Notes under the pieces: generated by a model
Told to the model about the DNA's origin: nothing
Databases searched by the model: none
Seen by the model: the letters and a program-made list of their open reading frames with translations, nothing else
Translations under genes and position numbers: made by a program
Shown here: positions 1,811 through 46,397 of the stretch, piece after piece
How positions within the stretch are numbered: position 1 is the first letter of the stretch
How the letters are laid out: the number at the start of each line of letters is the position of its first letter
Assembly (NCBI GenBank): GCA_018897155.1
Contig: JAHILE010000029.1
Location: 117-64,116, forward strand
Reading direction: 5' to 3'
Source: Nanobdellota archaeon
GTDB taxonomy: Archaea > EX4484-52 > LFW-46
Length of the DNA: 64,000 nt

Positions 1811-4737
1811 CTATGAAATAGTTCTTTTAAATTATCAAACAGTTTTACGTCAAACTTTCCTTGCTTCACTTCGGCGCCACCGCCTTTTGCGCCAAGGCTT
1901 TTCAGCTTTTCGAATTCTGCATCGTTTCCCTTAAAAACAAAAATTCCTGATTTGTTCACAAGCAGGACCTTGTCAAGCCGTTCTGCAATATTGCGCATTG
2001 TTTGGGCGTCAAAATCAACAAGCTTCACATCGCCTGATTTTATCAGCTTTGCTTTTACTTCCGCAATTTTTTGCGCCAGATATTCAATGTCTTTGCGTTC
2101 TTCTTTCCAGCGCGCAAATAACTCGCGCGAGAAGTCTTCAGGATTTTTGCGTTTGATGCCTTTTGCAAATTCCTGGAGATCCACATATTTTTTTCCCGCT
2201 TCATATTTTATGTTTTCTTTTGAAAGATTTTCGCGAAGCTCATTTATTTTTGATTTTTGGATTGCGTATTCTTCCGCAAAGCGCATAAGCGTTTCAAGGA
2301 CTTTCTCCCTTGGCACAGAAAATATTTGCGCGATTTTCTCAATATCTTTTTCATTCACTTTAATCTGCGGGGAGAGGCTTTCAAAGAATGCATTTAATTC
2401 CTGCAATTCTTTTTGCGCGCCTATTTCGTATTTTTTTGCGGCATTTCCTGCCGCGAATTCGATGCGCACAACGCCGTCCTGTATCTTGCTTGAGCCGATT
2501 ATTTTTATGATTTCGGCTTCTTTTGTGTTTTTCAGATGCGTTCCTCCGCAGGCTTCGACATCAACGCCTTCGATTATTATCGCGCGCAGGCGCTTTCCCG
2601 GAACTGCGCCGCCCTGATACAATCTAAAACCGTATTTCTTTTCCGCATCGGTTCTTGGAAGCAGCATGCTTTGGACCGGAATCGCGTCTTTTACAATCTT
2701 GTTTGCAATCGCCTCAATTTTTTTGATTTCATTGCTGTCAAGAGAATCATAATGAGTTATGTCCAGCCTTCCTTTATCAAGAGTTTTTTCCGCACCCGCC
2801 TGCCAGATGTGGCTGCCAAGTATAATTCTAGCCGCGCCGTTTATGATGTGTGCGGATGTGTGGTGCTGAGCAAGCTGCAGTCTTCTTGATTTTTCAATAT
2901 CGCACTTTACTGTTTCGCCTTCTTTAAACGAACTTGCCGGAGCTTTTAGTTCATGGATTATGACATTTCCTTGCTTAAAAACATCTGCGATTTCAATTCC
3001 ATTTATTTTCCCCATGTCGTGCATCTGCCCGCCAGATGTCGGATAGAACGCGGTTTTGTCAAGGACAATATATTTGCCTTCAATTATTTTCAGTACTTTT
3101 GCATCGAAATTCAGCAGCGCGTAATTGTCAAAGTACAGAATATTTGTTTCAGGAATGCTGCTTAGGTTAAATGTTTTTGCCTTTTTTGTTTCCGCCTTTG
3201 CTGCAACCTTCTCATGCCTTTCCGCGACTTTTTTGTAGAAATCGTCAGGAATAGTTATTTTCAGGCCTGCAGATTTCAGCATTTCCGGGCTGATGCCGTT
3301 TGAGTCGTAAAGCTCGATCAGCTTGCTTTCGGTTGCGTCTTTTTCAGAAAGCCCTGAAACTATTTTTCGCGATTTTTCCTTTGTCTCGGCGTATTTTCTT
3401 TTTTCGACTTCAATTATCTTTTTTACTTCTTCAAGGTTTTCCAGAAGCTCGGGATATTGCGCTTTCAGGTATTTTGCATGCCATTCGCAGACATCGTTTA
3501 AGTCTACATTCCAGCCATACTTGTTTGAGATGTCAAGCGATCTTCTAAGAAGCACGCGCAGATTGTATCCGCCTCCGACATTAGATGGCAGAACTCCATC
3601 AGAAAGCGCGACAAGCAGCGATCTTGTATGGTCGCCGATTGAATAAATTCCTGCAAGAGGCATGATGTGCTCTTTTAATTGCTTTGCGTCAATGCCGATT
3701 TTCTTTGCGATTTGCGCCCATGTTTTTTCAATGTCTGCGACCTCATCGATATTCAGAAGGCCTGATAGCGGAAGGAATTTTTTGAATATCTCTTTATTCG
3801 GCGCGATTCCTGTCAGTTTGTAAAGCTTTTCTGAAACTGTCGGAAAAACAGTTTCATAGCTTGTGCTTGCGCCGTTTGTGAACCATGAGTATCTTTCCTG
3901 CCCGGTGCCCATGTCAAGTACTTTGATATTAAGGTCTTTCACAGCGCCGGATTTTACATCGTACTGCATATATACTTGATTTCCGAGTTCAAGCCCTCCT
4001 GAAAAAAATTCAATTGAAGGCCCCATATTCCCTCCGCCGGCCCAAGCATCCTCATGGAATTGCAAATGCTCTTTCGGAATTTTAACGCCTTCAGTCAGCC
4101 ACGTGTATATGTGGCGCAGATAATCATGCGGCGCGTAATCCTTTGGCTTCATGAACGCATGTTGCCCAATCATGACAAATCCGGAATAATGCCTTCCGGT
4201 AATGCCTACATTATCAATATCGTTAAATCGCAGGCAGAATTGCGGCACAACAAGCGGGTTTGCAGGAGGGTCTACTTCGCCTGACACTACATACGGCTGA
4301 AAATCATAAATCGATGCCTGAACAAAATCCGTGTCGTCCCGCCATCTTGCGGCAACCGGATATCGCGCAATCGGGGTGTAGCCGAACTTTTTGAATGTTG
4401 ATGCGAATTTCTGCCATGTTTCGACATAGTCCATTTTGGCTTTTGCAGGCGTGTTTCCGATAAATGTGTAGCCGCCGGAGCAATCAGGCTCGCCGCACAC
4501 TGTTCTTTCGGAGTCTGTCGACCAGAAGAATGTTCCGCATTTCGCGCATTTTTTTCTCCGGAAGCCTTCTGCTTTGAGCACAGCTACGGGATAGTATTTT
4601 TCAGGCTCTGCCTGGGCTTTTAGCTTGAAGGCGCGCTTCATTTCTAATTCCAGCGCTTTCTGCGGCGCGATTGGGACCGGCATGCGATATGATTGGCGGG
4701 AAATTTTAATAAGCGTTGGTTTAATCACTACCGCCAA
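1807..4737 (-). CDS. alaS: alanyl-tRNA synthetase, archaeal type
   Basis: 976 aa; class II catalytic core, editing domain HxxxH motifs (HHTSAHIINGAARIILGSHIWQAG), C-terminal region typical of archaeal AlaRS. Confidence 0.95.
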   Translation of the reverse strand: MAVVIKPTLIKISRQSYRMPVPIAPQKALELEMKRAFKLKAQAEPEKYYPVAVLKAEGFRRKKCAKCGTFFWSTDSERTVCGEPDCSGGYTFIGNTPAKAKMDYVETWQKFASTFKKFGYTPIARYPVAARWRDDTDFVQASIYDFQPYVVSGEVDPPANPLVVPQFCLRFNDIDNVGITGRHYSGFVMIGQHAFMKPKDYAPHDYLRHIYTWLTEGVKIPKEHLQFHEDAWAGGGNMGPSIEFFSGGLELGNQVYMQYDVKSGAVKDLNIKVLDMGTGQERYSWFTNGASTSYETVFPTVSEKLYKLTGIAPNKEIFKKFLPLSGLLNIDEVADIEKTWAQIAKKIGIDAKQLKEHIMPLAGIYSIGDHTRSLLVALSDGVLPSNVGGGYNLRVLLRRSLDISNKYGWNVDLNDVCEWHAKYLKAQYPELLENLEEVKKIIEVEKRKYAETKEKSRKIVSGLSEKDATESKLIELYDSNGISPEMLKSAGLKITIPDDFYKKVAERHEKVAAKAETKKAKTFNLSSIPETNILYFDNYALLNFDAKVLKIIEGKYIVLDKTAFYPTSGGQMHDMGKINGIEIADVFKQGNVIIHELKAPASSFKEGETVKCDIEKSRRLQLAQHHTSAHIINGAARIILGSHIWQAGAEKTLDKGRLDITHYDSLDSNEIKKIEAIANKIVKDAIPVQSMLLPRTDAEKKYGFRLYQGGAVPGKRLRAIIIEGVDVEACGGTHLKNTKEAEIIKIIGSSKIQDGVVRIEFAAGNAAKKYEIGAQKELQELNAFFESLSPQIKVNEKDIEKIAQIFSVPREKVLETLMRFAEEYAIQKSKINELRENLSKENIKYEAGKKYVDLQEFAKGIKRKNPEDFSRELFARWKEERKDIEYLAQKIAEVKAKLIKSGDVKLVDFDAQTMRNIAERLDKVLLVNKSGIFVFKGNDAEFEKLKSLGAKGGGAEVKQGKFDVKLFDNLKELFHR

Positions 4738-16275: not shown

Positions 16276-16827
16276 TTGATAATAAAGCAGTTTACAGCAA
16301 AAAACGGAACTATATTTGTTTTGCGCACATTTGAACGAAAGGATTTATCACGCGTAAACGAATTTATGAATTTTGTAAATGATATTGTCGAAGAAGACGA
16401 TTATATACACACCAATAAAAAACAAACGTTGAAAGAAACCAAAAAAGATCTTACCGATATGTTAAAAGCGAGTTTGAAAAAAGAATCATTTGCGGTTGTT
16501 GCTGAAATTGACCAAAAAATAGCCGGATTTGCAGACATTACATCAAAAAAATTTAGAGAGAATCATGTTGCAGTTATTGGAATAATTATTGGGCGAACAT
16601 ATCGCGGAATTGGTTTGGGCTCTCAAATTTTGTCAGCTTTGATGGCTGAAGGCAATTTAAAACTTAAGGAAAAACCAAAAATTATCGAATTAGAAGTCTT
16701 TGAAACAAATAAAAATGCTCGAATAGTTTATCAAAAACTGGGTTTTAAGAAAATTGCGGAATTGCCAAATAGAGTGCAAAGACGCGGAAACTTAGTATTT
16801 AAAATAATGATGGAAAAATATGTTTGA
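16276..16827 (+). CDS. GNAT-family N-acetyltransferase
   Basis: Acetyl-CoA binding motif region (RTYRGIGLGSQIL) in 183-aa ORF; apparent TTG start; stop overlaps leuS start. Confidence 0.65.
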   Translation: MIIKQFTAKNGTIFVLRTFERKDLSRVNEFMNFVNDIVEEDDYIHTNKKQTLKETKKDLTDMLKASLKKESFAVVAEIDQKIAGFADITSKKFRENHVAVIGIIIGRTYRGIGLGSQILSALMAEGNLKLKEKPKIIELEVFETNKNARIVYQKLGFKKIAELPNRVQRRGNLVFKIMMEKYV

Positions 16828-34437: not shown

Positions 34438-34554
34438 AGGTCCGTGGTCTAGTCATGCGATTGCATAGCAATTTTCCTTATGCTCCGTATGAGAAATTGG
34501 TATGACGCCGCACTCACACTGCGGAGATCCTGAGTTCAATCCTCAGCGGACCTA
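34438..34554 (+). tRNA. tRNA-Val(CAC) with a ~44-nt non-canonical intron in the D-loop
   Basis: Perfect 7-bp acceptor stem AGGTCCG/CGGACCT, T8, anticodon arm CCGCA-CTCACAC-TGCGG, T-arm CTGAG-TTCAATC-CTCAG, followed by T-run; D-arm is interrupted between AGT and TGGTA. Confidence 0.8.
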
Positions 34555-39499: not shown

Positions 39500-40984
39500 A
39501 TGGTTCTGATGTCGCAAAAATACAATCTCCAGCCGCACGAAATCAAAGTGCTCAAATTTCTTGAGGATGAGAAAAAGCGCTTTGCAACTGAGCTTGAAGC
39601 CGTGCTCGGGATGGATCAGGTTGCTGTTGCCCGCGCAATTTACGGCCTCCAGCAGTCAGGTCTTGTAAAATCAAAGGAAGAAGAAAAGCTTGTTTTGAGA
39701 ATAACTTCCGAAGGCGAGTCGGTCCTTAAGCAGGGGCTTATAGAAAAACAGCTTGTTTCAGAAGTAGGGGAAAAAGGAAAATCGCTTTCTGAAATAAAGC
39801 TTTCTGAGAAAAATATTGCTCTTGGTTTTGCAAAAAAGAAAGGTTATGTTGAATTTGACAAAAGCAGCTTAAAGGCTACAAAAGCAGGCATTGACGCGCT
39901 TGGAAAACAGGATGCTGAAGAAGTTCTTCTTAAAAGAGCTGCGCATGGCGAGGCTTTAAAAAAAGATGAACTCGACACACTTAAGTCAAGAAAGCTTGCA
40001 GATTATTCTCTTAAGACAATCCGCGAAGTCAGCATAACTGCTGAAGGAAAAAAAGCGGCTCAAGGGCTTGAGGTAAGGGATGAAGTTTCGAGTCTGGCTC
40101 CGGAAATGATAAAATCCAGGGGTTGGAAAGAAGTTAGCTTGAGGAAATATAATGTGACTGCTCCGGTAACTGCAGTTTATGGCGGCAGAAGGCATTTCGT
40201 GAATCAGGCGATTGATTATGTCCGAAGTGTTTGGCTTGACATGGGTTTCAAAGAAATGACCGGCCCTCTTGTCAATACAGGATTCTGGAACTTTGATGCG
40301 CTTTTTGTTCCGCAGGATCATCCTGCGCGCGAGATGCAGGACACATTCTTTTTTAACGGAAAGGGAATGCTGCCTGATAAAAAAACTATCTCTGCAGTAA
40401 AGAAGGCGCATGAATCCGGAGTCAACGGTTCAAGAGGGTGGCAGTACAAATGGAGTGAAGAGGAAGCGGCACGACTGCTTTTACGCACGCACACCACAGT
40501 TCTTTCCGCAAAGACCCTCGCGCAAATTAAGAAGGATAGCCTTCCTGCGAAGTATTTTGCAATAGGCCGGGTGTTCAGAAATGAGGCTCTTGACTGGAAG
40601 CATCTTTTTGAGTTCAATCAGGTTGAAGGAATTGTTGTGGATCCTAACGCCAATTTCAAGAATCTGCTCGGCTACCTTAAAGAATTCTTTGGAAAGCTGG
40701 GCTTTGAAAAAGCAAGATTCCGGCCGGGATATTTTCCATATACTGAGATGTCGATTGAAATCGATGTTTTCCACCCTGAAAGAAAGCAGTGGGTGGAGCT
40801 TGGCGGCGCCGGCATTTTCAGGCCGGAAGTTGTCGAGCCGCTATTGGGCGAGCCAATACCGGTTCTTGCATGGGGGCCGGGGTTTGACCGAATCATCATG
40901 GATTACTACAAGATAAAATACATCCGCGATTTGTACGGGAATGACATAAAGCAGTTGCGCGAGATGAAAGTTTGGATGAGATAA
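39500..40984 (+). CDS. pheS: phenylalanyl-tRNA synthetase alpha subunit (archaeal)
   Basis: N-terminal winged-helix repeats and class II core (FRPGYFPYTEMSIEIDVF...VELGGAGIFRPEV); 494 aa. Confidence 0.9.
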   Translation: MVLMSQKYNLQPHEIKVLKFLEDEKKRFATELEAVLGMDQVAVARAIYGLQQSGLVKSKEEEKLVLRITSEGESVLKQGLIEKQLVSEVGEKGKSLSEIKLSEKNIALGFAKKKGYVEFDKSSLKATKAGIDALGKQDAEEVLLKRAAHGEALKKDELDTLKSRKLADYSLKTIREVSITAEGKKAAQGLEVRDEVSSLAPEMIKSRGWKEVSLRKYNVTAPVTAVYGGRRHFVNQAIDYVRSVWLDMGFKEMTGPLVNTGFWNFDALFVPQDHPAREMQDTFFFNGKGMLPDKKTISAVKKAHESGVNGSRGWQYKWSEEEAARLLLRTHTTVLSAKTLAQIKKDSLPAKYFAIGRVFRNEALDWKHLFEFNQVEGIVVDPNANFKNLLGYLKEFFGKLGFEKARFRPGYFPYTEMSIEIDVFHPERKQWVELGGAGIFRPEVVEPLLGEPIPVLAWGPGFDRIIMDYYKIKYIRDLYGNDIKQLREMKVWMR

Positions 40985-41036: not shown

Positions 41037-41801
41037 ATGATGCTTATGAAAAAACTTGAAGGAAGAGTTGCAGTTATTACCGGTTCAAGCAGGGGCATCG
41101 GCAGGGCAATTGCTCTTGAGTTTGCGAAAGAAGGCGCGAAAATAATTATCAATTATATCCAATCAAAAAAAGAGGCAGAAGAAGTCGTTGCAGAGATAAA
41201 GAAACTCGGTTCAGATGCATTGGCTATGGAATGTGATGTATCCGACGAAAAACAAGTGAATGAACTAATAAGTACAGCAGTCAAAAAATTCGGTAAAATA
41301 GACATTCTTATAAACAATGCAGGAATTGTTGCGCCGAAACCATTTCAAGAATTGATGGCGCAAGATTGGGAAAATATACTGAGAGTTAACCTAATCGGAA
41401 CATTTTTGTGTTCAAAGGCAGCCGCTCCGCACATGCTCCATCAGAAATACGGCAAAATTGTTAATGTTTCTTCAATACGCGGGCTCGAATGCTGCGGCAG
41501 AGCTGGAATACTTGATTACAGCGCTTCAAAGGCTGGTGTAATTAATTTCACAAAAACATTGGCGAAGGAATTAGCACCGCATGTTAATGTTAATAGCGTG
41601 GCTCCAGGCCTCACTGAAACGGACCAGTGGAAAAATAAAGACGCTTCATTTGTGAAAGCCGAAACAGAAAAAACGCTTTTTAAAAGATTCGCCAGACCCG
41701 AAGAAATCGCAAAAGCGGCTTTGTTCTTGGCATCTGACGATTCAAGTTACATAACCGGCGATGTATTAATAGTTGACGGAGGATATCATTTGCGCGAGTA
41801 G
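41037..41801 (+). CDS. short-chain dehydrogenase/reductase (FabG-like)
   Basis: TGSSRGIGRAIA cofactor motif, NNAG, YSASKAG catalytic triad region. Confidence 0.85.
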   Translation: MMLMKKLEGRVAVITGSSRGIGRAIALEFAKEGAKIIINYIQSKKEAEEVVAEIKKLGSDALAMECDVSDEKQVNELISTAVKKFGKIDILINNAGIVAPKPFQELMAQDWENILRVNLIGTFLCSKAAAPHMLHQKYGKIVNVSSIRGLECCGRAGILDYSASKAGVINFTKTLAKELAPHVNVNSVAPGLTETDQWKNKDASFVKAETEKTLFKRFARPEEIAKAALFLASDDSSYITGDVLIVDGGYHLRE

Positions 41802-41828
41802 AAAAGCTTATAAACTCATGTAACAAAT

Positions 41829-42383
41829 ATGTTACATATGGAACAAAAAATATCTTTTGAAATTATTGCCGCGATTATGCGGGAGCCAATGCATGCGCGG
41901 GCAATTGCCAAAAAGCTCGGCACAAACCATATGGCTGTAGTGCGCGGGCTAAAGGCTCTTGTAGTGGAAAATGCAGTGGATTTTCAGGCAGAAGGCAGGA
42001 ATAAAGTGTATTTTCCCAAAAAAAGCCTTGAGGCAAGGAATTTTGCAGTTATGGCAGAGCTTTACCGGCTTAACAAAACAATTGAAAAATATCCTGAATT
42101 AAGGGCGATTATTGAATCCATTCAGAAAAATCCGAAAATAGGGCTTGCGATGCTTTTTGGAAGCTATGCAAAAGGGATTGCCAGAACCGACAGCGACATT
42201 GATATTTTCATAGAATCAGAAGACAGAAAAATAAAGCAAGAAATCGAGCTTCTGAATTCGAAACTAATCGTAAAAATCGGAAGCTACGACCGCGATAATT
42301 TATTGATAAAAGAAATAGAAAAAAATCATGTAATGATTAAAGGAGCTGAAACCTACTATGAAAGAAACCGATTTTTTTATTAA
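41829..42383 (+). CDS. HTH domain fused to minimal nucleotidyltransferase (MNT-type)
   Basis: N-terminal wHTH-like segment then NTase motif MLFGSYAKGIARTDSDIDIF. Confidence 0.7.
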   Translation: MLHMEQKISFEIIAAIMREPMHARAIAKKLGTNHMAVVRGLKALVVENAVDFQAEGRNKVYFPKKSLEARNFAVMAELYRLNKTIEKYPELRAIIESIQKNPKIGLAMLFGSYAKGIARTDSDIDIFIESEDRKIKQEIELLNSKLIVKIGSYDRDNLLIKEIEKNHVMIKGAETYYERNRFFY

Positions 42384-42519
42384 GCTGCAAAAGGAAGGCA
42401 AGCGGATGATTTGTTCTATCGGCAACCTCAAGCCAACACAGATAAAAATGAGTAAAATAAAATATGCCTCAAGTCTGTAAGGTATTCGTGGTAGATTGAT
42501 TTAGTATTGAAGTGGTTTT

Positions 42520-43092
42520 ATGTTTAGTAAATCGTTTAATGATTTGGAAGATGAAGAAAAAATTATCTTGTATTCTTTAGGTGCTTTAAGTAACACCCCC
42601 CTTAGAAGTAAAATAAAACTGCAAAAGCTATTATTTTTGGTATCGAATGTTTTTAAAGAGTATAAAGATCTTTTGGAATTTGAACCCCATCTTTTTGGAC
42701 CTTATAGTGAAACTGTAAATTACGTATTAGAAGATTTGATGAAATTGGGATTGGTTTATCAGGAAGGAAGTAAATATACCCTAACTGAAAATGGTTTCGA
42801 ATTATTTAATCATCTTAAACCAAAAAAGGAACTTTTGAAAGTTATCGAAGATTTCAAAGAATTTTTAAATGATCTTTCAGATGACGAGGTGCTAGCATTT
42901 ATTTACGCATCTTATCCGAACTACATTTCAGAGTCAGCTAAATGGGATGAACTAAAGGTTAATAGAGCAAGATTTGCTGTTTCTCTCTTAAAGAAGCAGA
43001 AAATTAGTTTTGGGAAAGCTGCTGAACTCGCTGGATTAAAAACCGCGGAATTTGAAGATCTATTGATGAAAGCCAAGGTTCGATGGAAATGA
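42520..43092 (+). CDS. Panacea (DUF4065)-like domain fused to UPF0175-like antitoxin HTH
   Basis: N-terminal KIKLQKLLFLVSNVF...LFGPYSETVNYVLEDL resembles Panacea domain; C-terminal KISFGKAAELAGLKTAEFEDLLMKAKV resembles UPF0175 antitoxins; stop overlaps next gene start. Confidence 0.55.
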   Translation: MFSKSFNDLEDEEKIILYSLGALSNTPLRSKIKLQKLLFLVSNVFKEYKDLLEFEPHLFGPYSETVNYVLEDLMKLGLVYQEGSKYTLTENGFELFNHLKPKKELLKVIEDFKEFLNDLSDDEVLAFIYASYPNYISESAKWDELKVNRARFAVSLLKKQKISFGKAAELAGLKTAEFEDLLMKAKVRWK

Positions 43093-43658
43093 CGACGACG
43101 AAGGTAATGGATAATACGATAATTAGTACGAGTCTTAAAGAAATAAAATGCGTGAATCTCATTAAGAAATGTTCTGAACGATATACAATTGCGACATCAT
43201 ACGAAGTATATTTGGAATCGTGTAAAGGATTTAGTGAGACCGTTTTAAAAGAATTATATAAAACTGTTGTTGTTCGTAATTTGACTGATGATAAAAAATA
43301 TATTTTGCTTATTGATTATCTTCAAACAAGATACCCCTATCTACATAGCGGCGAATTATCATCATTCCTTCTTGCACTTTTAGATTATGAACTAAACAGA
43401 AAAGAATATTATTACGTTACTGACGACAACAAAATGAAAAAAGTTATTTCAAAAATGGGTGGAGATGATTTATTTTCTGAAAAAATAGGTAGCCCGATTA
43501 AAACATTTAATGTAACTGGTACTATCGGCTTGATAAGAAAACTGTATGAAAATGACAGTTTATCAACAGAAGATATCAAAAGGATAATAGAAGACTTGAA
43601 AAATAGTACTTTTTATATTACCCCCGACCTAATAAGTTATCTGAAGGTGGCTAAATGA
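43083..43658 (+). CDS. PIN-like nuclease, DUF3368-type putative toxin
   Basis: N-terminal acidic residue context (VMDNTIIS), DD pair (YYVTDDNKMKK), C-terminal GTIGLIRKL motif like DUF3368; overlapping start and stop with neighbours. Confidence 0.5.
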   Translation: MEMTTTKVMDNTIISTSLKEIKCVNLIKKCSERYTIATSYEVYLESCKGFSETVLKELYKTVVVRNLTDDKKYILLIDYLQTRYPYLHSGELSSFLLALLDYELNRKEYYYVTDDNKMKKVISKMGGDDLFSEKIGSPIKTFNVTGTIGLIRKLYENDSLSTEDIKRIIEDLKNSTFYITPDLISYLKVAK

Positions 43659-44740
43659 AGTTAAATGTTAAATTAGAAAAAGTTGATGATGAATTAATGT
43701 TTAAACGTACGAGCATTTGCTTAGGGAGTAAATCAATAATGACTCCCATAAAAGCAAGCTACTGTGAAAATCCCATAAGTGATATAAATGAAATATATAA
43801 GAAATTTTCATTGGAAAAATTAAACAACTGCCTTTCCGATGAACAACATGAAAGAAGAACTAATTCGGAAATAAAACGTGAGATGACAAACGGGCTCAAC
43901 ATGTGCATTGTTGATTATTCGAGTTCTACAATCCCTGAAAGAAAGCATATCGAAATGCTTGCAGATATACAGTACGAACATAGCGATATAGTTGTTACTC
44001 CAATTTTCTCAAACCTGTTGAGGAAAAAAGATTTGGTGGGTGAGTCATTGACAAAGACATTCATAGAATTAACGAATCAATATATTGAAATTGTTGAAAC
44101 TCTAAATCATAAAAGTATTGTTGGAGTCATACCGTCAAAAATGCCGCGAGAGCTTTTGAGACCGATAGTAGAAAACTATTGCGATAAGAACATAACATCA
44201 TTTGTTCTTGATTTTGACGGTAGATCTATTGATAATACAACTTGGATAAGACACTTAACAAGATTAATGAATGACTTTGATTTAACGGAAAAATCATTTT
44301 TATATTCAGTTAACGCGAACGAAGGTAAATTTATGAAAAATGCCGTCGAAATACCCGCAAAAGATTTCATAAATAGTGGATTTGGAATTGATATTTTGGG
44401 TTTAAATCATTTGCAACCGCGAATGAATTCCGAAGCGTGGGCTAAAATAAAGGCAAAGAGAGAAGAAAACACCTACAGAATATTCAATAGAGGTACTTAT
44501 GGATATGTGAAAAAGACAGAAGGTGAATTATTAAGACTTTTTGATATGTCCGATAAAAATAAATTAAGGGGGCAACGAAAAAAGTTTAATGTTTCTGAAC
44601 AACATAATGAGACAATAACATTACAAACAAAATTAAAGGAAGAACGCACTATCGAGCCATATATTAAATCTAAGTCTCAAATTAATGAGGATCTTATAAA
44701 GAAGATTAAGAAGTTAAGATCTGAAACATTTAGAAGATAA
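43655..44740 (+). CDS. hypothetical protein (361 aa), alternating beta/alpha pattern suggestive of a TIM-barrel-like fold
   Basis: ATGA overlap with preceding PIN gene; AT-rich codon usage like rest of island; no recognised motif. Confidence 0.55.
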   Translation: MKLNVKLEKVDDELMFKRTSICLGSKSIMTPIKASYCENPISDINEIYKKFSLEKLNNCLSDEQHERRTNSEIKREMTNGLNMCIVDYSSSTIPERKHIEMLADIQYEHSDIVVTPIFSNLLRKKDLVGESLTKTFIELTNQYIEIVETLNHKSIVGVIPSKMPRELLRPIVENYCDKNITSFVLDFDGRSIDNTTWIRHLTRLMNDFDLTEKSFLYSVNANEGKFMKNAVEIPAKDFINSGFGIDILGLNHLQPRMNSEAWAKIKAKREENTYRIFNRGTYGYVKKTEGELLRLFDMSDKNKLRGQRKKFNVSEQHNETITLQTKLKEERTIEPYIKSKSQINEDLIKKIKKLRSETFRR

Positions 44741-44747
44741 TTTATTA

Positions 44748-46397
44748 GTGATTTTTATGCCGACAGTTACGCTTAACAAAAAAAGAGTCCTTGAGCTTCT
44801 TGGAAAGAAGTACGATGATAAATTCCTCGCTGACAGAATTGCAATGCTTGGGACTGATTTAGAGTCCATTACAGATACAGAAATTATTGTCGAGGTTTTT
44901 CCGAACAGGCCGGATATGCTTTCTGAAGAGGGACTTGCGCGCGGCCTTCGCAGCTTTCTTGGCATTGAGACAGGGTTCAAAAAATACGAAGTGAAAAAAT
45001 CCGGATTCTCTACAACAAATGCAAATCCGCTTCCATATTGGCCTTATGTGGTTACAGCAATTGTGAAAGGGCTCGAACTGGATGATGCAAAAATAAGGCA
45101 GATTATCCAGATTCAGGAAAAGCTCGGAATCACGTTGCTGCGCAAAAGAAAAAAAGGCGGCATCGGATTATATCCGCTTGACAGGATAAAGATGCCGATA
45201 AAATTCGTATCTGATGCCCCGGAAAAAATACGCTATCGTCCTCTTGAATATCCTGAAGTAATTTCAGGAAAAGAAATACTTGAAAAGCACCCGACAGGAA
45301 AGACATATGCGCACATATGCAATGACTGGAAAAAAATCACTTATTTTGTCGATGCGTCGGGCACAATAATGTCCATGCCGCCTATTGTGAACTCGTATGA
45401 TGTCGGGAAAATCGACGAGAAAACAAAAGATGTCTTTATCGAGGCGACAGGCACGGATTTGAACACTTTGAAAATCGCGCTCAATATTGTCGTAACTGCT
45501 CTTGCAGATATGGGCGGGAAAATATATTCAATGGAAATCATTCAGGGGAACGAGAAATTCACCACACCTGATTTAACTCCGTCAAAAAGGAAGATTGACA
45601 GAAAATACGTCAATAAGCTTCTTGGTCTTGAACTAACCGACGCTGAGATGAAGCAGCTTCTTGCAAAAATGGGCATTGGATTCGAGGCAGGCTCTGCATT
45701 GATTCCGGCGTATCGCGCGGACATTTTGCATCCGATGGACCTTGTCGAGGATATTGCAATCGCATACGGCTATGAAAATTTTGATGCCCAGATTCCGAAA
45801 GTTGCGACAATCGGTGAAGAGTCTCGCGGAGCAATACTTAAGCGAAAAATTGCAGAAGTCCTTTCAGGGCTTGGATTTTTGGAATGCAACACATATCATC
45901 TTTCGAATGGAAAAGACCTTATTGAAAAGATGAATGCAAAAAAGACAAGCCTGGTAAAGCTTTCAAATTCCGTGAATATCGATTACGATGCGATGCGAAA
46001 CGCAATACTTCCGATTTTGATGAAAGTGCTTTCAGAGAACAGGCATAACGAATATCCGCAGAGAATTTTCGAATCGGGAATTGTTTTTGCAGAGGATTCC
46101 AAAGAAGAGACCGGCGTTTCCGAGCGCGCATCTTTATCCGCAGTATCCGTGCATCCGAATGTCGATTTCTCCGAAATAAAGGCAACACTAGATGCTCTAA
46201 TGCGCGCCTTTGACATAAAATACGAAATGAAAGAAAAGGAATATTCTTCATATATTTCAGGAAGGTGCGCGGAAATAGTCGTTGCAGGAAAATCCGTCGG
46301 CATGATTGGAGAACTGCATCCGCAGGTCCTGAACAACTGGGAAATCGAGATGCCTGTTGCAGGATTTGAAATTGATGTCGAGATGGTATTTGAGTGA
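44748..46397 (+). CDS. pheT: phenylalanyl-tRNA synthetase beta subunit (archaeal)
   Basis: N-terminal B1/B3-B4 region (MPTVTLNKKRVLELLGKKYDDKFLADRIAMLGTDLE...VFPNRPDMLSEEG) and B5 plus catalytic-like C-terminus; 549 aa. Confidence 0.9.
   Translation: MIFMPTVTLNKKRVLELLGKKYDDKFLADRIAMLGTDLESITDTEIIVEVFPNRPDMLSEEGLARGLRSFLGIETGFKKYEVKKSGFSTTNANPLPYWPYVVTAIVKGLELDDAKIRQIIQIQEKLGITLLRKRKKGGIGLYPLDRIKMPIKFVSDAPEKIRYRPLEYPEVISGKEILEKHPTGKTYAHICNDWKKITYFVDASGTIMSMPPIVNSYDVGKIDEKTKDVFIEATGTDLNTLKIALNIVVTALADMGGKIYSMEIIQGNEKFTTPDLTPSKRKIDRKYVNKLLGLELTDAEMKQLLAKMGIGFEAGSALIPAYRADILHPMDLVEDIAIAYGYENFDAQIPKVATIGEESRGAILKRKIAEVLSGLGFLECNTYHLSNGKDLIEKMNAKKTSLVKLSNSVNIDYDAMRNAILPILMKVLSENRHNEYPQRIFESGIVFAEDSKEETGVSERASLSAVSVHPNVDFSEIKATLDALMRAFDIKYEMKEKEYSSYISGRCAEIVVAGKSVGMIGELHPQVLNNWEIEMPVAGFEIDVEMVFE

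What the first reader, a model, noticed from the sequence alone, without database searches (positions are those of the whole stretch)
41037..44740. AT-rich accessory island inserted between pheS and pheT
The PheRS alpha (39500-40984) and beta (44748-46397) genes are normally adjacent in archaea. Here ~3.7 kb separates them. The insert carries an SDR, an HTH-nucleotidyltransferase, a Panacea/UPF0175-like antitoxin, a DUF3368-type PIN toxin and a 361-aa unknown protein. The last three have overlapping start/stop codons. The stretch from ~42500 to 44740 is visibly more AT-rich than its flanks, consistent with horizontally acquired defence/addiction cargo.
Basis: partly seen in the sequence, partly recalled or inferred. 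Interest (0 to 1): 0.65.

Follow-up and report, generated by a model that had tools for sequence, protein, structure and literature searches.

The report
Mobile three-gene PIN/antitoxin/TGT-fold module
Between the two phenylalanyl-tRNA synthetase genes of a DPANN-type archaeon, the foreign DNA is a 2.2-kb three-gene cassette (antitoxin-like protein, PIN nuclease, and an uncharacterised enzyme with the fold of tRNA-guanine transglycosylase) that recurs as a unit in distantly related archaea and was not found described in the searched literature.

Summary
The ORFs, coordinates, overlapping stop/start codons and AT-richness are real. The island is smaller than claimed.

In the closest relative found (L001, PheS 81% identical), the SDR and the HTH-nucleotidyltransferase (MNT) also lie between pheS and pheT, and both have native composition. 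Only the three AT-rich genes (42520-44740) are specific to the window. They occupy the position where L001 has the MNT's HEPN partner.

The three genes form a conserved module:
- A: winged-helix plus UPF0175. Its best structural match is the toxin-binding C-terminal domain of DarG. It is not Panacea by Pfam.
- B: a COG2405/DUF3368 PIN-like nuclease with conserved acidic residues.
- C: 361 aa, no family in Pfam, NCBIfam or PADLOC. The model is confident (pLDDT 94) and its top PDB matches are all tRNA-guanine transglycosylases. It lacks TGT's sequence motifs and Zn site.

A and B flank C in 29 of 30 informative loci from diverse archaea, including loci where the gene order is rearranged. Twice the module is joined to restriction-modification operons.

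Most likely this is a horizontally moving three-component toxin-antitoxin/defence module in which A restrains B, and C acts on nucleic-acid bases. C's chemistry is inferred, not shown. It is a new variant of a known kind, of moderate to high interest.

The parts
39500..40984 (+). pheS (PheRS alpha subunit). Left anchor of the slot; not part of the insert.
   Evidence: PF01409, 3.6e-81. 81% identical to L001 and collinear with it.
41037..41801 (+). SDR-family oxidoreductase (FabG/glucose-dehydrogenase-like). A resident of the slot, not part of the insert.
   Evidence: PF13561, 8.6e-70; NCBIfam subfamily models passed. An SDR occupies the same position in L001 (53% identity) and L006 (47%). GC 0.411, z +0.2.
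41829..42383 (+). Winged-helix plus minimal nucleotidyltransferase (MNT). It is the antitoxin half of a resident HEPN-MNT pair and has no HEPN partner in this window.
   Evidence: PF18765 4.7e-12, PF01909 2.9e-10, MntA_antitoxin 4.7e-9 (below its cutoff). The GSx10DxD motif can be read in the translation. 71% identical to L001 12284-12868, which is followed by a HEPN gene (PF05168, 2.6e-12). No HEPN anywhere in the window. GC 0.379, z -0.5.
42358..42414 (+). Possible 19-codon stub of the displaced HEPN gene, overlapping the MNT stop. Marks the left limit of the replacement.
   Evidence: tblastn of the L001 HEPN against the window: residues 1-19, 11/19 identical, E 0.069, at the homologous position. 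Not significant alone. A DNA-level remnant test beyond the MNT stop scored no better than shuffles.
42415..42519 (.). Left junction and upstream region of the module. AT-rich spacer containing an A/T-rich box (AAAATAAAATAT, about 42455-42466).
   Evidence: Sequence read directly. GC falls here. No repeats, tRNA or Rfam element at the border. Any promoter role is inferred.
42520..43092 (+). Gene A: 190-aa antitoxin/regulator-like protein. Helical plus winged-helix N-terminal part and a C-terminal UPF0175 HTH. The whole-length fold resembles the toxin-binding C-terminal domain of DarG.
   Evidence: UPF0175 1.8e-9 (above cutoff); HTH_45 1.7e-4. 57/58 relatives match UPF0175, 47/58 HTH_45, 0/58 DUF4065. 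PADLOC PDC-M19A 1.5e-14 and DarG 8.6e-7. Model pLDDT 92.4. Best PDB match 7yk3 chains B/D (DarT-DarG complex), prob 1.0, TM 0.5, E 1.6e-3.
43083..43658 (+). Gene B: 191-aa COG2405/DUF3368-type PIN-like nuclease. The presumed toxin/effector.
   Evidence: DUF3368 6.8e-5, below cutoff. Invariant D10, E45, G90, E91, D114, D115, G146 and G149 in 21 family members. Always next to gene A. The UPF0175-COG2405 pairing is established in the literature (PMC5499597, PMC2701414).
43655..44740 (+). Gene C (U361): 361-aa enzyme-like protein with a tRNA-guanine-transglycosylase-type TIM barrel. It belongs to an uncharacterised family.
   Evidence: No Pfam/NCBIfam/PADLOC family. 57 close clusters and 543 representative clusters. 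Model pLDDT 94.1, pTM 0.92. Foldseek against PDB: 93 hits at E<=1e-3, and the top 50 are all TGT/QTRT1/ArcTGT, best 4.6e-8, TM 0.62. Conserved E46, K153, D186, N220, D237, D246; of these D186, N220, D237 and D246 (with P116 and P160) lie at or just after strand ends.
44748..46397 (+). pheT (PheRS beta subunit). Right anchor of the slot. Starts 7 nt (GTG) or 16 nt (ATG at 44757) after the gene C stop.
   Evidence: PF17759 5.3e-45, B5 and B1 domains. 76% identical to L001, with the alignment starting at 44757. Junction read.

Best explanation
The feature is a 2.2-kb, AT-rich, horizontally transferred three-gene operon (A-B-C, 42520-44740). It lies in a variable slot between pheS and pheT of a DPANN-type archaeon. 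The slot already held an SDR gene and a HEPN-MNT toxin-antitoxin pair. The cassette now occupies the HEPN position, so the MNT has no HEPN partner.

Shown:
- The cassette is absent from the closest relative and compositionally foreign.
- It is conserved as a unit in very different archaea.
- Its genes are translationally coupled.

Inferred from family knowledge: A and B form a UPF0175-COG2405 type II toxin-antitoxin pair. A binds and neutralises the PIN-like nuclease B, and probably represses the operon through its winged helix or HTH.

Inferred from fold and context only: C is a catalytically active TGT-fold enzyme with a rebuilt active site. It acts on the base-ribose bond, or on the base-recognition surface, of a nucleic acid (tRNA or DNA), and it works together with B. 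The version I favour follows restriction-modification logic. C marks or inspects the substrate. B cuts it when A's restraint is lifted, for example on infection or on loss of the module. The result is a three-component addiction/defence system.
For: Re-delimitation:
- L001 has pheS-SDR-MNT-HEPN-pheT with collinear flanks.
- SDR and MNT have native GC; A, B and C are at z -1.8 to -2.2.

Module unity:
- A and B are adjacent to C in 29 of 30 informative C-seeded loci, and in 3 of 4 loci seeded independently from A.
- Hosts include Methanosarcina barkeri, Methanobrevibacter, Methanoregula, Heimdallarchaeota, Altiarchaeales and DPANN.
- Linkage persists when A-B lies on the opposite strand from C (L096, L108, L113).

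Mobility:
- Genomic contexts differ in every host. An integrase lies beside the module in L083/L084.
- The module is more AT-rich than its flanks in 13 of 15 hosts.

Defence link:
- The module overlaps the start of a type I R-M operon in L120 and abuts a methyltransferase plus ResIII pair in L085.

The three proteins:
- A: UPF0175 above cutoff; DarG-CTD-like fold.
- B: invariant acidic residues; known pairing with UPF0175.
- C: TGT fold, including the N-terminal sheet. A weak but topologically consistent hhalign to E. coli Tgt, P 0.012. Conserved polar residues, most at the C-terminal strand ends of the barrel. Basic C-terminal helices, pI 9.9.
- A solo C in L094 sits beside a PRTase and a DprA/SLOG protein, which also belong to families that work on base-ribose chemistry or nucleic acids.
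- TGT-family enzymes are known components of defence systems: DpdA, Cap10 and BRC.
Against: - No experiment exists on any member of the family.
- C shows no significant sequence similarity to TGT: hhalign probability 0.2-3.7%, and 0 of 128 relatives match Pfam TGT.
- C lacks the DSGGFQ motif and any conserved Cys for the Zn site. In the weak alignment the base-recognition Asp falls in a gap. TGT-type base exchange is therefore not supported residue by residue.
- Foldseek rmsd values are high (6-10 A).
- B's Pfam match is below its cutoff, and a family profile found no PIN structure by sequence.
- No PADLOC model hits C.
- The module was not found on viral contigs, and many copies lie among housekeeping genes.
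- The direction of the HEPN/module exchange rests on one relative and a non-significant stub.
- There are no att repeats, integrase or tRNA at the window's borders.
Confidence: 0.55

Rival explanations
1. The whole 3.7 kb (SDR, HTH-nucleotidyltransferase, antitoxin, PIN, unknown) is a single horizontally acquired accessory island inserted between otherwise adjacent pheS and pheT.
For: All five genes lie between pheS and pheT, and pheS abuts pheT in 32 of 71 related loci. The SDR is only 53% identical to L001's while its neighbours are 71-81%.
Against: L001 has an SDR and the MNT in the same order and place, and L006 has an SDR there. Both genes have native GC and GC3. 37 of 71 related loci carry other genes in the slot. 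No island borders such as repeats, a tRNA or an integrase were found.
Confidence: 0.06
2. Dual-toxin module. C is a second toxin, not a partner of B. The two-part protein A is a double antitoxin: its DarG-CTD-like/winged-helix N-terminal part neutralises C, and its UPF0175 part neutralises the PIN.
For: A has two parts and resembles over its length a domain that binds and blocks a nucleic-acid-modifying toxin (DarT). A is encoded first, as antitoxins usually are. In L126 an A homologue precedes different cargo, as a promiscuous antitoxin would. There is a weak Panacea-like motif register.
Against: C occurs alone without A in L094, which is unexpected for a toxin. When the order is rearranged, A stays with B and C flips strand. 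The DarG-CTD match covers the whole of A, including the UPF0175 region, so two separate binding modules are not demonstrated.
Confidence: 0.2
3. Protein-directed TGT relative. Like Cap10 of type IV CBASS, C uses the TGT fold to bind or transfer a nucleobase on a partner protein (A or B) and so controls activation of the nuclease. It would not act on nucleic acid.
For: There is precedent that a TGT-family enzyme in a defence operon binds the nucleobase-modified N-terminus of its partner. C is translationally coupled to B. The active site is remodelled.
Against: No QueC-like (Cap9-type) gene accompanies the module in any locus inspected. Cap10 keeps the canonical TGT residues and is recognisably homologous, whereas C is not.
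Confidence: 0.08
4. The event ran the other way. The A-B-C module is the older occupant of this slot in the lineage, and L001 replaced it with (or kept) a HEPN gene. The window would then show retention, not insertion.
For: Only one close relative is available. The HEPN stub is not statistically significant. No insertion scars were found.
Against: MNT and HEPN are an obligate pair, and the MNT is conserved in both genomes. The module is 0.10 lower in GC than the rest of the window and is AT-shifted in most hosts. The module sits in unrelated contexts elsewhere. The first 19 codons of the HEPN reading frame persist at the right place.
Confidence: 0.12
5. C is an ordinary metabolic TIM-barrel enzyme that merely shares a transcript with a two-gene toxin-antitoxin pair and has no joint function with it.
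For: No defence-database model hits C. Many copies lie among housekeeping genes. TIM barrels are mostly metabolic.
Against: Linkage in 29 of 30 loci from diverse archaea, down to about 27% identity and surviving rearrangement. ATGA coupling to B. The PDB matches are specifically TGT rather than generic barrels. The module is joined to R-M operons in two loci.
Confidence: 0.04

Closest known systems
UPF0175 (COG2886) - COG2405/DUF3368 PIN type II toxin-antitoxin pairs (Makarova 2009, PMC2701414; Matelska 2017, PMC5499597)
   Same: Gene A carries a UPF0175 HTH above the Pfam cutoff and directly precedes, with overlap, a COG2405-type PIN-like gene with conserved acidic residues. The pair is reported mostly from archaea and cyanobacteria.
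   Different: Gene A is about 190 aa with a roughly 135-aa helical/winged-helix N-terminal extension, whereas Makarova et al. describe COG2886 as a family of small proteins. A third, strictly linked 360-aa gene follows. The three-component COG2405 systems described so far use an HTH plus a DUF955 protease, not a TGT-fold protein.
tRNA-guanine transglycosylase superfamily (bacterial TGT, QTRT1, ArcTGT; DNA transglycosylase DpdA; CBASS Cap10)
   Same: Same overall fold by Foldseek: the top 50 PDB hits are all TGT-family, best E 4.6e-8, TM up to 0.62. The model has an N-terminal antiparallel sheet before the barrel and conserved polar residues, most at the C-terminal strand ends. Like DpdA, Cap10 and the BRC TGT, it sits in conflict-type operons.
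   Different: No significant sequence similarity. No DSGGFQ-type motif and no conserved Cys/His Zn site. The conserved set is E46, K153, D186, N220, D237 and D246 rather than the three canonical aspartates. No QueC/QueD/QueE, DpdB or DpdC genes are nearby.
DarG antitoxin C-terminal domain (DarT-DarG, M. tuberculosis, PDB 7yk3)
   Same: This is the best structural match for gene A over its whole length (prob 1.0, TM about 0.5, 16% identity). It is supported by PADLOC DarG (8.6e-7) and NCBIfam DarG (9.5e-5) hits on the motif KLQKLLF...GPYSE. In the complex with which that entry was deposited, the domain is bound to the toxin DarT.
   Different: Gene A has no macrodomain and there is no DarT gene. 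Its NCBIfam score is far below the DarG cutoff (21.8 against 250). Foldseek E is only 1.6e-3 with rmsd about 9 A.
Panacea / SocA (DUF4065, PF13274) antitoxins (Kurata 2022, PMC8832971)
   Same: A possibly similar N-terminal motif register (K.LQKLLF ... GP) in a weak hhalign to a genuine Panacea protein, P 0.046. One A homologue has different downstream cargo (L126), reminiscent of the partner swapping described for Panacea.
   Different: Gene A fails the criterion used to define PanA, namely the Pfam model at its gathering cutoff: no hit at E<=10 for the protein, and 0 of 58 relatives match at E<=0.01.
HEPN-MNT (type VII) toxin-antitoxin pairs
   Same: The resident gene at 41829-42383 has the MNT nucleotidyltransferase domain and motif. 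Its orthologue in L001 is followed by an overlapping HEPN gene.
   Different: In the window the HEPN partner is missing and the A-B-C module occupies its place. The MNT carries an extra N-terminal winged helix.

Membership tests
UPF0175 / COG2886 antitoxin | Match to Pfam PF03683 at or above the gathering score | tested here: met
   37.6 bits against cutoff 27.9, residues 141-188. 57 of 58 relatives match at E<=0.01.
UPF0175 / COG2886 antitoxin | Encoded next to a COG2405-type PIN gene on the same strand | tested here: met
   Gene B overlaps the stop of gene A. The pairing is seen in 29 of 30 informative loci.
COG2405 / DUF3368 PIN-like nuclease | Match to Pfam PF11848 at or above the gathering score | tested here: not met
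   23.1 bits against cutoff 27.3, E 6.8e-5, residues 144-185. Homologues in other loci are marked 'faint' or 'weak'.
COG2405 / DUF3368 PIN-like nuclease | Conserved acidic residues of a PIN active site (typically D, E, D, D) | tested here: inconclusive
   D10, E45, E91, D114 and D115 are invariant in 21 members. A fourth C-terminal Asp is not conserved. Matelska et al. list 2-5 such residues for this family. There is no structural model, and a profile search found no PIN in the PDB by sequence.
Panacea / SocA (DUF4065) | Match to Pfam PF13274 at the gathering cutoff (the criterion of Kurata et al.) | tested here: not met
   No hit at E<=10 for the protein, none at E<=10 for its N-terminal 136 residues, and none at E<=0.01 for 58 relatives. 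A genuine Panacea protein scored 72.7 bits in the same test. hhalign of the A family against it gives probability 1.2%.
DarG antitoxin | N-terminal macrodomain plus C-terminal DarT-binding domain, encoded next to DarT | tested here: not met
   Only the C-terminal domain is resembled. NCBIfam antitoxin_DarG scores 21.8 against cutoff 250. There is no macrodomain or DarT in the locus.
tRNA-guanine transglycosylase superfamily (TGT/DpdA/Cap10) | TGT-type (beta/alpha)8 barrel with an N-terminal sheet | tested here: met
   Model pLDDT 94.1, with strands 4-10, 17-23 and 26-29 before the barrel. Foldseek against the PDB: the top 50 are all TGT family, best E 4.6e-8, TM 0.47-0.62.
tRNA-guanine transglycosylase superfamily (TGT/DpdA/Cap10) | Sequence homology detectable by the Pfam TGT model or by profile comparison | tested here: not met
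   No TGT hit for the protein or for 128 relatives at E<=1. hhalign probability 0.2% (A2) and 3.7%, P 0.012 (A6) against E. coli Tgt.
tRNA-guanine transglycosylase superfamily (TGT/DpdA/Cap10) | Three invariant active-site aspartates: general acid/base in a DSGG-type motif, base-recognition Asp, and nucleophile Asp (PMC10164549) | tested here: inconclusive
   There is no DSGGFQ-type motif in the sequence. In the weak hhalign the 'FDEC' Asp falls in a gap. The conserved acidic residues are D186, D237 and D246. A residue-level structural superposition could not be made here.
tRNA-guanine transglycosylase superfamily (TGT/DpdA/Cap10) | C-terminal Zn site (Cys/His cluster) | tested here: not met
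   No Cys or His is among the invariant or >=90% conserved columns of 54 or 128 relatives, except H252, which is conserved in the close set only. The C-terminal 73 residues have no Cys. That TGT has such a Zn site is from my own knowledge of the family.
HEPN-MNT toxin-antitoxin pair (resident gene 41829-42383) | MNT nucleotidyltransferase domain with the GSx(n)DxD motif | tested here: met
   PF01909 at 40.9 bits against cutoff 21, plus PF18765. The motif GSYAKGIARTDSDID is visible in the translation.
HEPN-MNT toxin-antitoxin pair (resident gene 41829-42383) | Adjacent HEPN-domain partner | tested here: not met
   There is no HEPN in the window apart from a 19-residue stub, E 0.069. The partner is present in L001 (PF05168, 2.6e-12).
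Horizontally acquired genomic islet | Absent from the closest relative at a syntenic site, with deviant composition | tested here: met
   Met for 42520-44740 only. Not met for 41037-42383.
Horizontally acquired genomic islet | Recognisable insertion machinery or scars: integrase, flanking direct repeats, tRNA target | tested here: not met
   Only short, chance-level repeats. No tRNA within 9 kb. No integrase domain among the locus genes.

The most novel reading that the evidence does not exclude
Gene C founds a new, mostly archaeal branch of the TGT-fold enzymes with a rebuilt active site. Together with a PIN-like nuclease and a DarG-CTD-like antitoxin it would form an undescribed three-component immune/addiction system. 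That system would work by exchanging, removing or reading a base in tRNA or DNA, as a compact counterpart of the Dpd or restriction-modification logic. Most archaea make preQ0 for archaeosine (my own knowledge), which might supply the base and might explain the archaeal bias.
Probability: 0.25. Interest if true: 0.85.

Novelty: new variant of a known kind. Interest (0 to 1): 0.62.

Why it matters
TGT-fold enzymes were long regarded as tRNA-modifying housekeeping enzymes. DpdA (DNA modification) and Cap10 (protein-linked nucleobase in CBASS) showed that the fold has been recruited for immunity. This analysis finds a sequence-orphan family of about 543 clusters with the same fold. In every sampled genome but one it is tied to a PIN nuclease and an antitoxin-like protein, it is spread across distantly related archaeal lineages, and in two loci it is joined to restriction-modification operons.

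If C acts on nucleic-acid bases, this would be a new compact defence or addiction mechanism in archaea, whose immune repertoire is poorly charted. It would also assign a function to a three-component form of one of the most common archaeal toxin-antitoxin pairs.

The locus further shows two things. The pheS-pheT junction is a recurrent landing slot in DPANN-type genomes. And one toxin-antitoxin element can occupy the place of half of another, leaving an antitoxin without its toxin.

The family includes cultured, partly genetically tractable hosts (Methanosarcina barkeri Wiesmoor MSBRW_1867, Methanobrevibacter arboriphilus), so the question can be tested directly.

Tried and rejected
- A DNA-level remnant of the HEPN gene after the MNT stop, and at the right border: local alignment scores were no better than shuffles. 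Only a 19-codon protein-level stub remains, E 0.069.
- att-like direct or inverted repeats at the borders: only 12-32-nt chance-level matches.
- tRNA or ncRNA at the borders: none.
- Sequence routes from gene C to a known family all returned nothing: Pfam at E<=10, NCBIfam, PADLOC, a PDB profile search, ten distant relatives, and 128 relatives.
- Looking for a TGT gene in the 1.3 Mb of fetched loci, to build a profile: none found. I then used the E. coli Tgt sequence from memory purely as a search seed. It matched PDB entry 10fb at 882 bits.
- hhalign of the C family against that sequence: not significant.
- The viral structure library gave only weak hits.
- A viral-contig scan for gene C found nothing.
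- A gene B family profile against the PDB did not recover a PIN structure.
- The 'Panacea' label was rejected by Pfam and left unproven by hhalign.
- Literature searches for the triplet, for MSBRW_1867, for TGT-like toxins and for a PRTase/SLOG/TGT link found no prior description. The defence-glycosylase preprint proved irrelevant because it concerns non-TGT glycosylases (Dag1/Dag2).

Full report
**1. Observation**

- pheS 39500-40984
- a 254-aa SDR at 41037-41801
- a 184-aa HTH-nucleotidyltransferase at 41829-42383
- three overlapping ORFs: 42520-43092 (gene A, 190 aa), 43083-43658 (gene B, 191 aa) and 43655-44740 (gene C, 361 aa)
- pheT at 44748-46397

Pfam confirms PheRS alpha and beta, the SDR (8.6e-70), the nucleotidyltransferase (PF01909 and PF18765, above cutoffs) and UPF0175 in gene A (37.6 bits against cutoff 27.9). 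DUF3368 in gene B is below its cutoff (23.1 against 27.3). Gene C matches nothing.

The A/B and B/C junctions overlap by 10 nt and by ATGA respectively.

GC falls from about 0.43 to about 0.31 between roughly 42.2 and 44.75 kb. 1-kb windows across 42001-45000 are 0.31-0.34 against a window mean of 0.406 (sd 0.032). Apart from one 1-kb window downstream of pheT (starting 46501), they are the only ones below 0.34 in the 64 kb.

**2. The island is smaller than claimed**

The PheS protein identifies the window as a DPANN-type archaeon. The closest genome locus is L001 (uncultured archaeon LFW-46), with PheS 81% identical.

L001 is collinear with the window on both sides. Between pheS and pheT it carries an SDR (53% identical), the HTH-MNT (71%) and a 159-aa gene overlapping both the MNT and pheT. 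That gene is a HEPN domain protein (PF05168, 2.6e-12). L006 also has an SDR in the slot.

Per-gene composition agrees. The SDR (GC 0.411, z +0.2) and the MNT (0.379, z -0.5) are native. A, B and C have GC 0.318, 0.302 and 0.315 (z -1.8 to -2.2) and GC3 0.26-0.29. Codon-usage distance is only mildly raised.

The window-specific, compositionally foreign segment is therefore the three-gene cassette of about 2.2 kb. It sits where L001 has the HEPN gene.

The window has no HEPN anywhere. The only trace is the first 19 codons of the HEPN frame, overlapping the MNT stop (11/19 identical, E 0.069). This is suggestive but not significant. A DNA-level test for a remnant beyond the MNT stop was negative. 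No repeats, tRNA, integrase or Rfam element mark the borders.

**3. The pheS-pheT junction is a variable slot**

Of 71 related loci that hold both genes, 32 have them abutting and 37 carry 1-4 small co-directional genes between them. Those genes are heterogeneous: HIT (8), MazG (4), Yip1, ASCH, methyltransferases, NYN, GNAT, NIF3, an SDR and a PIN. The premise 'normally adjacent' holds for only about half of this group.

**4. The three genes are one conserved module**

Gene C has 57 close clusters (35-71% identical, 342-374 aa full length, none with a Pfam domain). They come from DPANN, Altiarchaeales, Heimdallarchaeota, Thermoplasmata, Methanosarcina barkeri (MSBRW_1867) and Methanobrevibacter arboriphilus. 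An exhaustive profile search finds 543 representative clusters.

In every long contig examined, C is preceded by a 185-204-aa UPF0175-type protein (the Methanobrevibacter copy has no Pfam hit on record) and a 190-197-aa DUF3368-type protein, nearly always with overlapping or abutting stops and starts.

A jackhmmer/HMM census over 42 C-seeded loci gives:
- A and B both adjacent to C: 29 loci
- B present, with A cut off by the contig end: 6 loci
- nothing upstream because C is at the contig edge: 6 loci
- C alone with full flanks: 1 locus (L094)

In L096, L108 and L113 the A-B pair is on the opposite strand from C but still adjacent. The linkage therefore survives rearrangement, and A-B behaves as a sub-unit.

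Starting independently from gene A homologues, 3 of 4 long contigs (Methanoregula, a Methanofastidiosum-type archaeon, an Altiarchaeon) again show A-B-C. L126 has A with other, unknown cargo.

Contexts differ in every host:
- housekeeping neighbours (L081, L119)
- an integrase (L083/L084)
- a HicA gene and a transposase (L122)
- direct junction to a type I R-M operon (L120, where the hsdM start overlaps the C stop)
- direct junction to a methyltransferase plus ResIII pair (L085)

The module is more AT-rich than its flanks in 13 of 15 hosts, by up to 0.22. It was not found on viral contigs. The window holds a single copy.

**5. What the proteins are**

Gene A. 57 of 58 relatives match UPF0175 and 47 of 58 match the winged helix HTH_45. 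14 match 'wHTH-PRTase associated', and none matches DUF4065/Panacea. The criterion used to define Panacea antitoxins is the Pfam model at its gathering cutoff, so the 'Panacea' label is not met. A genuine Panacea protein scored 72.7 bits in the same test, and hhalign between the two gave probability 1.2%. PADLOC hits PDC-M19A (1.5e-14) and DarG (8.6e-7). The AlphaFold model is confident (pLDDT 92.4). Its only probable PDB match is the C-terminal domain of DarG in the DarT-DarG complex (7yk3 chains B and D: prob 1.0, TM about 0.5, E 1.6e-3). Gene A thus looks like a toxin-binding antitoxin with DNA-binding elements.

Gene B. Invariant D10, E45, E91, D114 and D115, plus the G-T-I-G motif, are conserved across 21-27 members. 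This fits the COG2405 PIN-like family, whose exclusive partner is UPF0175. I did not model its structure, and a sequence profile found no PDB relative.

Gene C. The model is very confident (pLDDT 94.1, pTM 0.92). Foldseek against the PDB gives 93 hits at E<=1e-3, and the 50 shown are all bacterial TGT, QTRT1 or archaeosine TGT (best 4.6e-8, TM up to 0.62, about 10% identity). The model also has three N-terminal strands before the barrel. From my own knowledge of the fold, TGT has a comparable N-terminal sheet.

By sequence there is no significant link to TGT:
- Pfam TGT is never hit, in the protein or in 128 relatives.
- hhalign to E. coli Tgt gives probability 0.2% with the close family.
- With the diverse family it gives 3.7% (P 0.012). 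That alignment keeps a sensible strand register: IQYEHSDIVV against IQYDLGSDIVM, and K.IVGVIP against ALFGIIQG.

The canonical features of TGT and DpdA are three invariant aspartates and, from my own knowledge of the family, a DSGG-type motif and a Zn site. None of these is recognisable in C. Across 128 relatives the conserved positions are T30, P31, E46, P116, K153, G157, P160, Y175, D186, N220, D237, G244, D246, G249, F277, Y282, Y284, E319 and K340. Of these, P116, P160, D186, N220, D237 and D246 lie at or just after strand ends, which is where TIM-barrel active sites sit. The C-terminal helices are basic (pI 9.9).

C is therefore probably an active enzyme of the TGT fold with a rebuilt active site. 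Its substrate and chemistry are not established.

**6. Mechanism**

Shown:
- a foreign, mobile, translationally coupled three-gene unit
- A with antitoxin-type domains
- B with nuclease-type residues
- C with a TGT-type fold
- strict co-occurrence of the three

Inferred from established family knowledge: A binds and neutralises B, and regulates the operon.

Inferred from fold and context: C acts on a base or on the base-ribose bond of tRNA or DNA, in concert with B. I favour restriction-modification-like logic, in which C marks or inspects and B cuts, for four reasons:
- A-B stays together while C can flip strand, as controller-nuclease and modification genes do in R-M systems.
- C can exist alone (L094), which is expected of a modifier and not of a toxin.
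- The module is joined to R-M operons in two loci.
- The solo C sits beside a phosphoribosyltransferase and a DprA/SLOG protein.

Known TGT relatives in immunity are DpdA, Cap10 and the BRC TGT. They make such a role plausible. They also show that the target could be a protein.

Rivals are listed with their tests: C as a second toxin with A as a double antitoxin; a Cap10-like protein-directed role; the reverse direction of the exchange at the slot; and mere co-transcription.

**7. Comparison and novelty**

The A-B pair is a member of the known UPF0175-COG2405 class. The three-component COG2405 systems described so far use an HTH and a DUF955 protease. No paper in the searchable library describes a TGT-fold partner, this gene family or MSBRW_1867.

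I rate the finding a new variant of a known kind. The third component belongs to an uncharacterised family and could prove more novel than that.

**8. Verdict**

The interesting object is not an 'island of five genes'. It is a conserved archaeal A-B-C module, in the place where the closest relative has a HEPN toxin gene, inside a variable slot between the two PheRS genes. Interest 0.62.

Noticed in passing
L094:6001-9662 (and 3253-4134): This is the only gene C homologue found without genes A and B. It is directly followed by a zinc-ribbon phosphoribosyltransferase and a DprA/SLOG-family protein, with a DNA methylase upstream. This may be an alternative partnership for the TGT-fold family.
   Followed up: partly
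L120:510-8397 and L085:4867-12363: The A-B-C module runs straight into a type I R-M operon (the hsdM start overlaps the gene C stop) in L120. In L085 it abuts an N6/N4 methyltransferase plus ResIII helicase.
   Followed up: partly
L126:2644-6557: A gene A homologue (294 bits to the family HMM) is followed not by B and C but by unknown genes of 92, 485, 219 and 220 aa with no Pfam match. This could be partner swapping by the antitoxin.
   Followed up: no
L116:129-2255: A module copy in which gene A and gene C are each split into two ORFs. It looks like a decaying copy.
   Followed up: no
L124:4086-4655: A genuine SocA/Panacea gene (PF13274, 5.8e-20) lies divergently just upstream of an A-B-C module, so toxin-antitoxin-type genes cluster there.
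   Followed up: no
L001-L080, pheS-pheT gaps: In DPANN-type and related archaea the pheS-pheT junction is occupied in 37 of 71 loci by 1-4 small co-directional genes of many kinds (HIT in 8, MazG in 4, Yip1, ASCH, methyltransferases, NYN, GNAT, PIN). It is a recurrent variable slot inside an essential gene pair.
   Followed up: partly
window:46409-47485: Immediately downstream of pheT there are further AT-rich small ORFs: 133 aa on the minus strand and 108 aa on the plus strand, GC 0.34 and 0.28, no Pfam match. L001 has only about 480 bp at this position, so this is possibly a second window-specific insert.
   Followed up: no
window:48787-54500: A segment of about 5.7 kb with several genes (642, 357, 336 aa) has no counterpart in L001, although both sides are syntenic.
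   Followed up: no
window:16276-16827: An AT-rich GNAT acetyltransferase gene (GC 0.313) overlaps the start of a class I tRNA synthetase gene (probably LeuRS) at 16824. This is another tRNA synthetase gene with a small AT-rich gene attached.
   Followed up: no
window:19802-22309: An 835-aa protein whose only Pfam signal is a weak 'wHTH-PRTase associated' match (4.5e-5). The same domain is seen weakly in 14 of 58 gene A relatives.
   Followed up: no
window:59065-59222 and 34481-34554: Rfam finds two tRNAs that ARAGORN missed. One spans 158 nt and probably contains an intron; the other is just above threshold.
   Followed up: no
window:41037-41801 vs L001:11538-12287: The SDR is only 53% identical between the window and L001, while the flanking pheS, MNT and pheT are 71-81% identical. 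Either it evolves faster or a paralogue has replaced it within the slot.
   Followed up: no
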